DNA of 64,000 nucleotides from Eledone cirrhosa (taxonomy: Eukaryota): positions 350,176,001 to 350,240,000 of the forward strand of contig OZ024740.1 of the NCBI GenBank assembly GCA_964016885.1, written 5' to 3'. The notes below the pieces were generated by a model, which saw only the letters and a list, made by a program, of their open reading frames with translations, did not search any database and had not been told where the DNA came from. The position numbers and the translations under genes were made by a program. Shown in pieces: positions 27,998 through 63,296 of this stretch. Position 1 is the first letter of the stretch, and the number at the start of each line of letters is the position of its first letter.

Positions 27998-28069
27998 TTC
28001 CCATGCCGGGAATCGAACCCGGGCCGCCTGGGTGAAAGCCAGGAATCCTAACCACTAGACCACATGGGA
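27998..28069 (-). tRNA. tRNA-Glu-TTC: tRNA-Glu (TTC)
   Basis: Minus strand TCCCATGTGGTCTAGTGGTTAGGATTCCTGGCTTTCACCCAGGCGGCCCGGGTTCGATTCCCGGCATGGGAA folds into a cloverleaf; a T-run terminator follows. Confidence 0.96.
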
Positions 28070-36928: not shown

Positions 36929-37116
36929 ATTTATGTATATATATACATACTACTGTGCGTCTGTATACATATATGTATGTACGTGTACATACTTATATTT
37001 AAGTAACAGCCGTACTAAGAGTGGGAAATGAAATTTCGTTTCATTTTTTCCGTTTATCGTTTTCGGTGCACCCGGCCGAATAACCCACTCGATATGCAAA
37101 TTGGGCTACTCACCCG

Positions 37117-37207
<91 letters not shown>

Positions 37208-45448: not shown

Positions 45449-45521
45449 GGCCGCGTGGCCTAATGGATAAGGCGTCTGACTTCGAATCAGAAGATTGCGA
45501 GTTCGAGTCTCGTCGTGGTCG
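45449..45521 (+). tRNA. tRNA-Arg-TCG: tRNA-Arg (TCG)
   Basis: GGCCGCGTGGCCTAATGGATAAGGCGTCTGACTTCGAATCAGAAGATTGCGAGTTCGAGTCTCGTCGTGGTCG; T-run terminator downstream. Confidence 0.96.
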
Positions 45522-46438: not shown

Positions 46439-46511
46439 TGACCACAACGAGACTCGAACTCGCAATCTTCTGATTCGAAGTCAGACGCCTTATCCATTAG
46501 GCCACGCGGCC
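46439..46511 (-). tRNA. tRNA-Arg-TCG: tRNA-Arg (TCG), second copy, convergent
   Basis: Reverse complement of 45449-45521 with two substitutions near the 3' end; TTTTT lies downstream on the minus strand. Confidence 0.88.
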
Positions 46512-53400: not shown

Positions 53401-53507
53401 TATTTATATATTCATATTTATATATATATTTATATATATATATATATATAGTGGTGGAACACTGGAAGGTAATATCCGTAGTGGTAGAGCACTCAGTCCA
53501 AGGGACG

Positions 53508-53656
53508 AGTTAGGTAGAAGTGGTTACACAACAGTTAGTTCACCATACCGAGAACAATTGTTTCACGTTCGCGGATCTTCAGCTGAAGATCCGCGAAGGT
53601 GAAACAGTTGTTCTCGGTATGTTGAACTAACTGTTGTGTAACCACTTCTACCTAAC

Positions 53657-53657
<1 letters not shown>
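53508..53657. repeat. 150-bp near-perfect loopless palindrome with back-to-back HHR cores
   Basis: Centre tcttcag|ctgaaga at 53582/53583; the right arm reads CTGAAGA-t-cc-gcgaa-gg-t-GAAA-cagttg-TT-ct. Confidence 0.88.
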
Positions 53658-53732
<75 letters not shown>

Positions 53733-53736
<4 letters not shown>

Positions 53737-54575
53737 GGAATAGAATGAAATGAAATTTCATTTCTCACTCTAAGTACGGCAGTTACTTAAATGTAAGTAT
53801 GTATGTATGTATACGTACATACATATATGTATACAGACGTACAGTAGTATGTATATATATACATACATGCACACATATATATATATGCACGCGTCGGTTT
53901 ACCGAACATTTATTATAATGCTCGGTTTGTTTGTAAACAAACAGCCCGAATTACGCCGTACAGTGTTTAGGCGACCACGTCACCTTTTTGTTCAACACTG
54001 ACACAGGAACGATGTACTAGTTTCAAGCTTATTAGCTATCGTCAGCATCGTATACCTTCCTGCCAGATGGTTGAACGTCTGAAAGTATATACTTTCCTTA
54101 TGCATATTAATGGCTGAGCAGCCTAATTTGCATATCGAGTGAGTTTAGTCGGCTGGGCGCACCGAAAACGATAAATGGAATAGAATGAAACGAAATTTCA
54201 TTTCTCACTCTTAGTACGGCAGTTACTTAAATGTAAGTATGTATGTATGTATACGTACATACATATATGTATACAGACGTACAGTAGTATGTATATAGAT
54301 ACATACATGCACACATATATATATGCACGTATCGGTTTACCGAACATTTATTATAATGCTCGGTTTGTTTGTAAACAAACAAACAACCCGAATTTCGCCG
54401 TACAGCGTTTAGGCGACCACGTCACCTTTTTGTTCAACACTGACACAGGAACGATGTACTAGTTTCAAGCTGATTAGCTATCGGCAGCATCGTATACCTT
54501 CCTGCCAGATGGTTGAACGTCTGAAAGTATATTCTTTCCTCATGCATATTAACTGTTGAGCAGCCTAATTTGTAT
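53733..54575 (-). repeat. Head-to-tail dimer of the family A HHR repeat (~442-bp period)
   Basis: HHRs at 54009-54051 and 54451-54493, 442 bp apart. Confidence 0.9.
54009..54051 (-). ncRNA. Type I hammerhead ribozyme (family A subfamily), intact core
   Basis: Minus strand: acgatg-CTGACGA-t-agct-aata-agct-t-GAAA-ctag-TA-catcgt. The second copy (54451-54493) has CTGCCGA. Confidence 0.87.
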
Positions 54576-54699
54576 ATATTTATATATATATATATTATTT
54601 CCGTATATGATTCTTTGCCTGTGTTCTTACAATTTTATTTCTATGATTTTTTGTTCACAATTGCCTGTGTTTTTACCTTTATGATATTTTGTCTTTAAT

Positions 54700-59250
<4,551 letters not shown>

Positions 59251-59355
59251 TATATATATATATATGTATATCTATATATATATATATAAATATGCTGCTA
59301 CCTTGATTATTTTTGCGCCGACGCAGCGGATTTCTCTAATTCTGGATGTTATTCT

Positions 59356-59431
<76 letters not shown>

Positions 59432-59524
59432 GTATATATATATATATAAATATATATATATAAATGTATATATAAATATATATATATTATATATATATAT
59501 ATATAAATATATATATATAAATGT

Positions 59525-59555
<31 letters not shown>

Positions 59556-59558
59556 AAT

Positions 59559-59627
<69 letters not shown>

Positions 59628-59638
59628 AATATATATAA

Positions 59639-59690
<52 letters not shown>

Positions 59691-59702
59691 ATATTTATAT
59701 AT

Positions 59703-62220
<2,518 letters not shown>

Positions 62221-62233
62221 ATATATATATATT

Positions 62234-62268
<35 letters not shown>

Positions 62269-62271
62269 ATT

Positions 62272-62324
<53 letters not shown>

Positions 62325-62347
62325 ATATATTCATATATATATATATT

Positions 62348-62398
<51 letters not shown>

Positions 62399-62399
62399 T

Positions 62400-62438
<39 letters not shown>

Positions 62439-62447
62439 ATATATATT

Positions 62448-62526
<79 letters not shown>

Positions 62527-62597
62527 ATACATATATTTATATATATATATATATATATTTATATATAGATATATATATATTTATATATATATATATA

Positions 62598-62695
<98 letters not shown>

Positions 62696-62720
62696 ATATA
62701 TTTATATATATTTATATATA

Positions 62721-63200
62721 AGTTGAAAAAAGTGAAAACGAAATTTCTTTTCTCACTCTTAGTATGGCACTGTACGTCTGTATACATATATGTATGTACG
62801 TATACATACATACTTACATTTAAGTAAGTGCCATACTAAGAGTGAGAAATGAAATTTCGTTTTCATTTTTTTCAACTTATCGTTTTCGGTATGCCTGACC
62901 GATTTAACTCACTCAATATGCAAATTAGGCTGCTCAGACGTTAATTTTCATAAGGAAAGTATATACTTTCGAACGTTCAACTATCTGGCAGATGGGTATA
63001 CGGTGCTGATGATAGCTAACAAGCTTGGAACTAGTACGTCGTTCCTGTGTCAGTGTTGTACAAAAAGGTGACGTGGTTGCCTTAACACCGTATGGCATAA
63101 ATTCAGGCTGTTCAGTTTGTTTACAAACGAACAAAGCGGCGCTATAATAAGCGTCCGCTAAACTCATGCGTGCATATATGTATGTGTACCTGTATGTATA
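62721..63200 (+). repeat. Family A HHR repeat monomer with short inverted head; HHR at 63000-63042 has GAAA changed to GGAA
   Basis: Near-identical to 9180-9610. Confidence 0.88.
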
Positions 63201-63296
63201 TATATGTATATATATATATATTTATATATATATATTTATATATTTATATATATATATATATTTATATATATATTTATATATATATATTTATATATA

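What the first reader, a model, noticed from the sequence alone, without database searches (positions are those of the whole stretch)
53733..54575. Dispersed ~440-485-nt non-coding HHR monomer (family A) in tandem and permuted copies: retrozyme-like family
Seen: head-to-tail dimer here (HHRs 442 bp apart), further copies at 8201-9716 and 62721-63200, and a partial copy at 36950-37120. Copies start at different phases of the unit and have no real ORF. Stem I pairing is kept between subfamilies (acggtg/catcgt with G-U versus acgatg/catcgt) and loop II varies (aaca/aata) while the flanks diverge. Inference: a non-autonomous element copied from a circular or multimeric RNA by PLE machinery. The palindromic ACTAGT stem III fits the dimer-dependent minimal HHRs described in PLEs.
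Basis: partly seen in the sequence, partly recalled or inferred. Interest (0 to 1): 0.78.

Follow-up and report, generated by a model that had tools for sequence, protein, structure and literature searches.

The report
Hammerhead repeat spread by Penelope elements
A 442-base non-coding repeat carrying a hammerhead ribozyme motif is scattered in well over a thousand copies through this 3-Gb animal genome, and the shape of its insertions indicates that it is likely copied by the enzymes of Penelope-like retrotransposons, which makes it a clean example of an animal 'retrozyme' but not a new kind of element.

Summary
53731-54577 is a 1.9-copy head-to-tail array of a 442-bp unit (94% alike). Each unit carries a type-I hammerhead (HHR) motif on the minus strand, and related copies lie at 8213-9717, 36998-37123 and 62736-63264. 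One of the two HHRs in the dimer has a core mutation (CUGCCGA).

The exact 43-nt HHR occurs 1,663 times in the genome and 0 times in the reversed control. Stems I and II covary between this family and a diverged sister element in the window.

Junctions in 57 sources show these features:
- The 3' end is fixed at one of two 'CAUUUA' sites and is followed by a (TA)n tail, as in the genome's autonomous Penelope-like elements (PLEs).
- The 5' ends are variable.
- Many copies are longer than one unit, always with the same unit-to-unit junction.
- Inverted neighbours lie head-to-head 31 times against 2 tail-to-tail.

These are the published hallmarks of PLE insertion. No copy is attached to a PLE ORF.

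Best reading: a non-autonomous, PLE-mobilised HHR element, that is, an animal non-LTR retrozyme, copied from a repeating RNA template. Whether that template is circular could not be tested, and no RNA-labelled runs were listed. This is a new member of a known kind, of moderate interest.

The parts
53731..54577 (-). Family-A array of 1.92 units. In RNA sense it runs u322-442, then u1-442, then u1-286.
   Evidence: TRF; BLAST mapping to the unit
54009..54051 (-). Intact type-I hammerhead motif (stem I, CUGACGA, stem II with loop AAUA, GAA, ACUAGU, A). Predicted cleavage is after A at 54015.
   Evidence: the exact 43-mer occurs 1,663 times in the genome and 0 times reversed
54451..54493 (-). Second hammerhead of the dimer, with a core change (CUGCCGA) and loop II AAUC. 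Probably inactive.
53660..53733 (.). (TA)37 tail abutting the fixed 3' end ...TTCCATTTAT of the array.
54232..54326 (-). TA/TG-rich, quasi-palindromic low-complexity segment of the unit (u131-225). A second copy lies at 53792-53886.
8213..8547 (-). Subfamily copy, 5'-truncated inside the HHR, lying head-to-head with the next copy. Its 3' end faces the (AT)51 at 8099-8201.
8552..9031 (+). Subfamily copy (u305 to the 3' end ...AACTTA) followed by a (TA)n tail at 9031-9067. Intact HHR at 8653-8695.
9141..9717 (+). Subfamily copy of about 1.2 units, ending at the second 3' site ...CTTACATTTA(TA)n. Intact HHR at 9412-9454.
36998..37123 (+). Internal fragment (u226-353) that spans the unit-to-unit junction.
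62736..63264 (+). Subfamily copy with a short inverted piece at its 5' end (62736-62769, minus strand). The HHR at 63000-63042 is mutated (GGA for GAA).
11967..12330 (-). Sister element A', collinear with family A from the HHR to the 3' hairpin and (TA)n tail. Its HHR at 12259-12301 has compensatory changes in stems I and II.

Best explanation
Family A is a 442-nt non-coding repeat with a type-I hammerhead motif, and it is likely a non-autonomous retroelement (an animal non-LTR 'retrozyme') that the enzymes of Penelope-like elements would copy into (TA)n sites by target-primed reverse transcription from a repeating RNA template, either a multimer or, as predicted but untested, a circle.

Shown directly:
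- the motif, its genome-wide copy number and its covariation;
- the fixed 3' junctions at two 'CAUUUA' sites (unit positions about 286 and about 225) followed by (TA)n tails of 4-84 nt;
- the variable 5' ends, and copies of 0.1 to 2.7 or more units that always share the same unit junction;
- the head-to-head inverted partners;
- the same (TA)n-type tails on autonomous PLEs of this genome.

Inferred:
- a PLE reverse transcriptase with GIY-YIG endonuclease nicks a (TA)n-rich target;
- the (TA)n DNA end primes at a U/A-rich site inside the RNA;
- cDNA synthesis runs round or along the repeating template and stops at variable points, preferentially where the unit's own (UA)n run begins;
- priming on both strands gives the inverted pairs.

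The fixed end lies 3' on the hammerhead strand, so the hammerhead is on the template RNA. Its predicted role is to cut multimeric transcripts to unit length, acting as a pair through the palindromic ACUAGU, with a host ligase closing the circle. I put the circle step at about 0.4.
For: HHR motif:
- 3 window matches against 0 in shuffles; 16 against 0 in the reversed control for the wider detector.
- The exact 43-mer occurs 847+816 times in the genome and 0 times reversed.
- 54 of 73 sampled instances keep core and stems.
- Between A and the sister element A', 12 of the 14 differences are six double compensatory changes in stems I and II. The other two fall at N7 and H17.
- On 4 sequences, 8 of 12 pairs change on both sides and 89.6% of cells pair, against 67.4% in shuffles (0 of 500) and 23-48% when the partners are slid.

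Dispersal: at least 1,887 and 1,089 first-look candidates on all large contigs, with the best copies 95-100% identical.

3' ends:
- Every terminal copy reads ...CCATTTAT(AT)n and then unique DNA, whereas internal junctions read ...CCATTTATCGTTTTCGG.
- A second class ends at ...CTTACA(TTTA)(TA)n: 36 ends against 56 that continue.

Lengths: 9 of 26 anchor-sampled copies exceed one unit. 14 of 78 5' ends fall in u118-136 where 3.4 are expected (p=6e-6).

Inverted neighbours: 31 head-to-head against 2 tail-to-tail (p=1e-7). Some pairs are co-inserted: 98-100% alike in L009 and 99.3-99.6% at 8.2-9.7 kb, against a between-locus median of 95.9%.

PLEs in this genome:
- 10,596, 76,203 and 34,680 first-look candidates.
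- Intact RT+GIY-YIG ORFs.
- Tails of (TA)n or TG/TA type.
- Their own minimal HHR with a palindromic AGUACU about 390 nt after the stop codon.

Published PLE hallmarks match (PMC8557442 passages). The published retrozyme model matches (PMC7229834 sections 15 and 17; preprint sections 11 and 16).
Against: - No RNA evidence of any kind was obtained, so cleavage, unit-length RNA and circles are all untested.
- Rfam reports no hammerhead here at its gathering score or at E<=10. It also nearly misses the 78-bp tandem HHR of the window, so this silence weighs little.
- No consistent target-site duplication in 18 insertions.
- No autonomous PLE with a homologous 3' end was found. My first candidate was withdrawn.
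- Between the two subfamilies the HHR is not significantly more conserved than the rest: 3 of 43 against 44 of 304 differences, p=0.13.
- The two units of this dimer are no more alike (95.5%) than random family members (95.9%).
- 5' ends are not enriched at the HHR cleavage site: 5 in u1-21 where 3.7 are expected. Nothing therefore shows that cleaved RNA is the template.
- The loci were the best-scoring matches, so they sample the youngest subfamily only.
Confidence: 0.75

Rival explanations
1. The element is a PLE-dependent parasite, but the hammerhead plays no part in its copying. On this reading the multi-unit copies arise only from the tandem-forming habit of PLE integration, or from linear read-through transcripts of genomic arrays, and no circular RNA is involved.
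For: Autonomous PLEs make partial tandems without any need for circles (PMC8557442 passages). 5' ends are not enriched at the cleavage site. Most copies hold a single HHR, and 19 of 73 HHRs are decayed. The units of the dimer are no more alike than background.
Against: The HHR core is intact in the family consensus, in the subfamily and in sister element A', with six double compensatory stem changes. That argues for selection on the fold in the master lineages. Copies of up to 2.7 units or more with 98-100% identical units (L009) need a long homogeneous template.
Confidence: 0.3
2. The copies are simply 5'-truncated tail ends (pLTRs) of an autonomous PLE whose body was not sampled, not a separate element.
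For: The 3' end is fixed and the insertion form is the PLE one. Earlier notes of this scan on other genomes reached that verdict for look-alikes (unchecked). The preprint finds retrozymes related to PLE pLTRs.
Against: Going upstream from the 3' end, the sequence re-enters the same 442-nt unit. 50 of 53 instances continue through the unit junction and 3 are truncations, and none leads into another recurrent sequence. Of 52 PLE-ORF loci of five families, 51 have no unit-like sequence, and L055 has it on the opposite strand. tblastn of PLE proteins on 58 family loci finds only scattered, unlinked hits.
Confidence: 0.08
3. The family is mobilised by another reverse transcriptase (a LINE or other non-LTR element), not by PLEs.
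For: No partner with a shared 3' sequence was identified, and TPRT with 5' truncation is common to LINEs.
Against: Head-to-head inverted partners at 31:2 and partial tandems are PLE signatures. The (TA)n-type tail is shared with four PLE families here. The HHR has the PLE/retrozyme type of helix III. LINEs of this genome were not examined.
Confidence: 0.07
4. The family is a satellite or segmental duplication with a chance hammerhead-like motif.
For: It is tandem, AT-rich and embedded in microsatellites, and Rfam is silent.
Against: There are 1,663 exact motif copies on many contigs with unique flanks. One end is fixed and the other variable. The stems covary, and reversed and shuffled controls give 0.
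Confidence: 0.02

Closest known systems
Animal non-LTR retrozymes (Cervera & de la Pena 2020, PMC7229834: abstract, sections 15 and 17 and found passages read)
   Same: Short, low-GC (38%), non-coding tandem unit of a few hundred bases, with one type-I HHR per unit. It occurs as dimers to multimers in thousands of dispersed copies and coexists with PLEs. Helix III is a single base pair capped by a palindromic tetraloop, as described for axolotl HHR_Amex1. There is a U.U mismatch at the base of helix II, as described for HHR_Amex2.
   Different: Expression as linear and circular RNA, which defines the class experimentally, is untested here. Most copies here are 0.1-1.5 units with a fixed 3' end and a (TA)n tail, not long arrays. 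The unit (442 nt) is slightly above the 170-400 nt reported in that paper.
Non-LTR retrozymes as PLE derivatives (Li, Clavereau & Pollet 2026 preprint, 10.64898/2026.07.22.740005: abstract and sections 11 and 16 read; supplements closed)
   Same: Co-occurrence with PLEs and a mix of monomers, dimers and multimers. The unit length lies inside their 51-972 bp range.
   Different: They argue from phylogeny of pLTRs and propose local amplification. Here the argument comes from insertion junctions, and no homologous PLE tail was found.
Minimal hammerheads in PLE pseudo-LTRs (cited in PMC7229834 and PMC8557442; dimer-dependent cleavage recalled from Lunse et al. 2017, not read)
   Same: Type-I HHR with a one-base-pair helix III and a palindromic loop that could pair between two copies. 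PLEs of this genome carry such a motif (AGUACU) about 390 nt after the ORF.
   Different: Family A has no ORF. Its helix I is long (6 bp, an internal loop, then further pairs in the fold), not minimal.
Non-autonomous PLE derivatives such as MRC1 of Chlamydomonas (PMC8557442 passage)
   Same: [quoted passage not shown]
   Different: Those share 3' sequence with an autonomous family and have no HHR. Here the HHR is present and a shared 3' sequence was not found.
Plant LTR retrozymes (PMC4918200, search listing and abstract only)
   Same: Non-autonomous HHR element thought to pass through a circular RNA.
   Different: Plant retrozymes have type-III HHRs in LTRs, a PBS and PPT, 4-bp TSDs and Gypsy-type mobilisation. 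None of these is present here.

Membership tests
Animal non-LTR retrozyme | Type-I hammerhead in every unit | tested here: met
   Motif with all core positions. Compensatory stem changes. 54 of 73 instances are intact. Catalysis was not assayed.
Animal non-LTR retrozyme | Short non-coding unit in head-to-tail tandem, low GC | tested here: met
   442-bp unit, 1.9 copies here. Up to 2.7 units or more in L009 and a 4-copy array of a 285-bp derivative in L121. GC is 38%. The longest frame is 92 codons.
Animal non-LTR retrozyme | Transcribed and present as unit-length linear and circular RNA | not testable with these tools
   No run on record as RNA was listed, and contigs cannot show ends or circles.
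Animal non-LTR retrozyme | Coexistence with PLEs in the genome | tested here: met
Rfam hammerhead families (Hammerhead_1, _3, _II, HH9, HH10) | Score at or above the gathering threshold of the covariance model | tested here: not met
   No hammerhead hit at gathering or at E<=10 over 53700-54600. As a control, the 78-bp tandem HHR scores only 16.5 and 12.9 bits, so the models are insensitive to these variants.
PLE-type insertion (Craig et al. 2021) | Frequent 5' truncation with a fixed 3' end | tested here: met
PLE-type insertion (Craig et al. 2021) | Partial tandems (pseudo-LTR) | tested here: met
   Copies of 1.03-1.64 units are common. 14 of 78 5' ends lie at u118-136, which gives terminal direct repeats of about 160 nt.
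PLE-type insertion (Craig et al. 2021) | Inverted 5'-truncated copy adjacent to the 5' end | tested here: met
   31 head-to-head against 2 tail-to-tail in 57 sources.
PLE-type insertion (Craig et al. 2021) | Microsatellite association | tested here: met
   (TA)n tails on family A and on PLE families. Whether the (TA)n is target or added tail is not resolved.
Autonomous Penelope-like element | ORF with RT and GIY-YIG endonuclease | tested here: not met
   No ORF in the unit and no ORF joined to it.
Dimer-dependent minimal HHR | Cleavage requires two motifs paired through a palindromic helix III | not testable with these tools
   The sequence has the palindrome ACUAGU. A cofold run was uninformative.

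The most novel reading that the evidence does not exclude
The genomic copies are footprints of rolling-circle reverse transcription. On this reading a PLE enzyme, primed by a nicked (TA)n target, starts at a fixed 'CAUUUA' site on a hammerhead-made circular RNA and runs round it up to three times or more. That would be the first junction-level evidence for the retrozyme life cycle in animals. The same route would explain how PLEs themselves make pseudo-LTRs and seed (TA)n microsatellites.
Probability: 0.35. Interest if true: 0.6.

Novelty: new member of a known kind. Interest (0 to 1): 0.4.

Why it matters
How animal retrozymes move is still stated as open in the two papers read. This family is young, abundant (about 1,700 exact ribozyme copies) and has unusually legible junctions. 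It has two fixed start sites, (TA)n tails shared with autonomous PLEs, copies longer than one unit and a 31:2 head-to-head bias.

It is therefore a good system in which to test whether PLE enzymes copy circular ribozyme RNAs. It could also show whether such insertions contribute to the many (TA)n arrays of this genome. It does not change the known picture.

Tried and rejected
- Rfam at gathering and at E<=10 gave no hammerhead. The control on the 78-bp HHR array was almost as blind. PLE loci also gave none.
- RNA evidence: no RNA holder was listed. Contigs of four runs of unknown kind cover the unit with thousands of variant pieces, but cannot show ends, strand, circles or expression. I draw nothing from their depth.
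- I first read the HHR-bearing stretch 12330->11967 as the 3' tail of the neighbouring PLE remnant, and hence as family A's parent. Comparison with 19 other copies of that PLE showed that the PLE ends at about 12329. The stretch is a separate sister element, and the claim was withdrawn.
- Search for an autonomous partner: 30 GIY-YIG loci, 10 long-ORF loci, 19 copies of the 12-13 kb PLE family and 11 copies of the 54.7-59.1 kb PLE family showed no unit-like tail.
- Target-site duplications: none above shuffled controls in 18 insertions.
- Intra-array versus inter-array identity as a test for circles: uninformative for old copies.
- 5' ends at the cleavage site: not enriched.
- RNAcofold of two HHR domains: uninformative.
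- Protein atlas: confirmed a PLE-type protein family only and gave no host taxon.
- This scan's notes: none on this genome or on look-alike stretches.
- A degenerate 43-place pattern to count stem-I pair variants genome-wide was not accepted and was not pursued.
- The class-b end scan was polluted by the palindromic low-complexity segment. Rows under 0.3 units were dropped (105 of 133), and L110 was dropped as a duplicate of L008.

Full report
**What is there.** The window is G000:C1:350176001-350240000 of a 3.0-Gb, 1,796-contig animal-type genome. Tandem Repeats Finder reports 53731-54577 as 1.9 copies of a 442-bp unit with 94% matches.

The hammerhead (HHR) motif lies on the minus strand: ACGAUG-CUGACGA-UAGCU AAUA AGCUU-GAA-ACUAGU-A, followed by CAUCGU (54051->54009). 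Cleavage is predicted after the A at 54015. I define the RNA-sense unit U as the reverse complement of 54015-54456, with u1 the base after the predicted cut.

The second HHR of the dimer (54493->54451) reads CUGCCGA with loop AAUC. By recalled HHR biochemistry a change at A6 should inactivate it, so this locus has only one intact ribozyme motif.

- 8213-8547 (-)
- 8552-9031 (+)
- about 9141-9717 (+)
- 36998-37123 (a fragment across the unit junction)
- 62736-63264

The unit has no long frame: at most 92 codons stop-to-stop in the dimer. Its GC content is 38%. It folds well below shuffles (-148 kcal/mol, z=-7.7), with stem I closing the molecule and stem II formed, although a long TA/TG palindrome (u131-225) contributes much of that energy.

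**Is the hammerhead more than chance?**
- The pattern CTGANGA..GAAACTAGTA matches 3 times in the window against 0 in 100 shuffles.
- A broader type-I detector of my own finds 16 sites in the window and 0 in the reversed window.
- The exact 43-mer occurs 847+816 times in the genome and 0 times when read backwards.
- Of 73 instances in the DNA I held, 35 are exact and 54 keep core and stems. The rest carry scattered single hits, as expected for decaying dead copies.
- The window subfamily at 8-9.7 kb, about 86% identical overall, differs in the HHR only at N7, in loop II and by A-U to G.U in stem I. That is 3 of 43 against 44 of 304 elsewhere, which is not significant (p=0.13).
- The stronger evidence comes from a sister element A' at 12330->11967 (-). 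It is collinear with family A from the HHR to the 3' end (alignment score 264 against 98+-8.5 for shuffles). Of its 14 HHR differences, 12 form six double compensatory changes in stems I and II, and the other two fall at N7 and H17. The core, loop II and ACUAGU are identical.
- On four sequences (A, the subfamily, A' and a PLE hammerhead), 8 of 12 pairs change on both sides and 89.6% of cells pair, against 67.4% in shuffles (0 of 500) and 23-48% with slid partners. Four sequences is a small sample.
- Rfam finds no hammerhead at gathering or at E<=10. It gives only 16.5 and 12.9 bits to the plain 78-bp tandem hammerhead at 24253-24842, so its silence says little.

**How the copies sit in the genome.** A 288-nt probe gave at least 1,887 first-look candidates, with the 40 scored at 95-100% identity. 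A 61-nt probe gave at least 1,089, with 40 scored at 100%. I studied 28 loci from the first search and 27 from the second, plus the window. L001 and L103 are the window itself. L109 and L110 duplicate L008.

1. *The 3' end in RNA sense is fixed.* Terminal copies read ...TTCCATTTAT(AT)n and then unique DNA, while internal junctions read ...CCATTTAT|CGTTTTCGG. A second class ends at ...CTTACA(TTTA)(TA)n near u225 (36 ends against 56 that continue). Both sites share CAUUUA. Tails in 18 measured copies are 4-84 nt.

2. *The 5' ends are variable.* In the anchor-sampled set, 26 copies ending at u286 span 0.09-1.54 units, and 9 of 26 exceed one unit. L009 reaches 2.7 units or more. The first set is biased towards copies of more than one unit by its probe, so I do not use it for this share. 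Among 78 5' ends from both sets, 14 lie at u118-136, the start of the unit's own (UA)n run, where 3.4 are expected (p=6e-6). Five lie at u1-21 where 3.7 are expected, so there is no excess at the cleavage site. Before that count, 105 of 133 class-b rows under 0.3 units were dropped as palindrome artefacts.

3. *Inverted neighbours are head-to-head.* Copies on opposite strands within 250 bp lie head-to-head with their 3' ends outward 31 times, against 2 tail-to-tail, in 57 sources (p=1e-7). Some such groups are co-inserted: 98.2-100% alike in L009 and 99.3-99.6% for the three copies at 8.2-9.7 kb, against a between-locus median of 95.9%.

4. *No target-site duplication.* None stands out in 18 insertions.

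5. *The fixed end lies 3' on the hammerhead strand.* The motif is therefore on the RNA that is copied.

**Link to Penelope-like elements.** The genome is full of PLEs. There are 10,596 GIY-YIG first-look candidates and intact RT+GIY-YIG frames of up to 938 aa. Two families that have remnants in this window give 76,203 and 34,680 candidates.

Their 3' ends carry the same kind of tail:
- ...CTTTCTAA(TA)n in 5 of 5 loci of one family
- ...TTAATA(TA)n or similar in 2 of 3 loci of another
- TG/TA-rich ends in the 12-13 kb family
- ...TTTTTACA(TA)n for the window PLE at 54694-59133

One family has its own minimal hammerhead with palindromic AGUACU about 390 nt after the stop codon.

Craig et al. 2021 (passages) list 5' truncation, partial tandems, an adjacent inverted 5'-truncated copy and microsatellite bias as PLE insertion features. 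They also describe non-autonomous derivatives that make head-to-tail insertions. Family A shows all four features.

Family A is nevertheless not a PLE tail. In 50 of 53 cases the sequence upstream of u297 is the preceding unit, 3 cases are truncations, and none leads elsewhere. No unit-like sequence sits beside the PLE ORFs sampled, apart from one copy on the opposite strand in L055. tblastn of PLE proteins against 58 family loci gives only scattered hits. In this window the dimer's 5' end faces the 5' end of the decayed PLE at 54694-59133 across a short TA-rich spacer. That could be one double-primed event or simple nesting, and I could not tell which.

**Mechanism.** Shown directly: the motif, its covariation, and the junction anatomy.

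Inferred:
- a PLE RT with GIY-YIG enzyme nicks (TA)n-rich DNA;
- the DNA end primes at an internal CAUUUA site of the RNA;
- synthesis continues for 0.1 to about 3 unit lengths on a template that repeats;
- the 5' junction often forms where the cDNA again offers TA repeats;
- priming on both strands gives the head-to-head pairs.

Because starts are internal and copies exceed one unit with an invariant junction, the template must be either a multimeric transcript or a circle.

The published model for animal retrozymes has HHR cleavage of oligomeric transcripts, ligation by a host tRNA ligase, and target-primed copying of the circle into tandem cDNA (PMC7229834 section 17). That model fits, but nothing here separates it from linear multimers. 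I put the circle at about 0.4. The one-pair helix III with palindromic loop and the U.U at the base of helix II match features that the same paper describes for axolotl ribozymes, which cleave well only as dimers. By analogy only, paired action is predicted here.

**Comparison and novelty.** The family meets every sequence-level criterion of an animal non-LTR retrozyme. The experimental criterion, linear and circular RNA, could not be tested. No RNA-labelled run was listed, and contigs of runs of unknown kind cannot show it.

A 2026 preprint already argues from pLTR phylogeny that such elements derive from PLEs, and states that mobilisation remains to be characterised.

Unchecked notes of this scan on other genomes describe similar PLE-pattern repeats in TA microsatellites, and also cases that turned out to be plain PLE tails. 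The latter prompted the test.

Verdict: a new member of a known kind, with unusually clear insertion junctions. Interest 0.4.

Noticed in passing
window 24253-24842 (+); single units at 13240 (+) and 9794 (-): A 78-bp unit repeated 7.6 times (96% alike), each unit with a complete type-I hammerhead motif that has a longer helix III (ACAG..CUGU). The same unit lies inverted against the 5' end of the truncated PLE at 13232 and recurs near PLE copies elsewhere (L061, L066, L070). It may be a very small retrozyme or a PLE terminal module.
   Followed up: partly
window 12329-13232 (-): 5'-truncated remnant of a PLE family with 76,203 first-look candidates in the genome. It has a GIY-YIG-like frame at 12644-13287 and ends in TG/TA-rich low complexity.
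   Followed up: partly
window 54694-59133 (+): Decayed, frameshifted PLE of another family (34,680 first-look candidates; 27-30% identical to the other PLE ORFs). It lies head-to-head with the family-A dimer and ends ...TTTTTACA(TA)285. By eye there is a possible minimal hammerhead, CTGAGGA..GAAACGTC, at about 59017-59052.
   Followed up: partly
window 18640 (+), 23396 (-), 59854 (+), 62118 (+): Four further hammerhead-like sites of three other sequence types. Together with the sites described in the items above and in the main finding, the window holds 16 detector hits against 0 in the reversed control.
   Followed up: no
window 53507-53665: A near-perfect inverted repeat with arms of about 75 bp, directly beside the (TA)37 tail of the dimer. 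It could be a hairpin-forming element of unknown kind.
   Followed up: no
window-wide, e.g. 8099-8201, 9031-9067, 11760-11966, 53660-53733, 59134-59703, 62218-62720: Many of the window's (TA)n arrays abut the 3' ends of PLE-type insertions, so PLE or retrozyme insertion may seed or target a good part of this genome's TA microsatellites.
   Followed up: partly
L121:4602-5741 (G000:C3:304583601-304584740): Four tandem copies (97% alike) of a 285-bp deletion derivative of the unit, which lacks most of the low-complexity segment.
   Followed up: partly
window 27998-28069 (-), 45449-45521 (+), 46439-46511 (-): Three tRNA genes. The last two are near-identical copies on opposite strands about 1 kb apart.
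   Followed up: no
run X5 (organism B): Five contigs, 90-99% alike to part of the unit, occur in a run labelled as a different organism from the main holders. A related species may carry the family.
   Followed up: no
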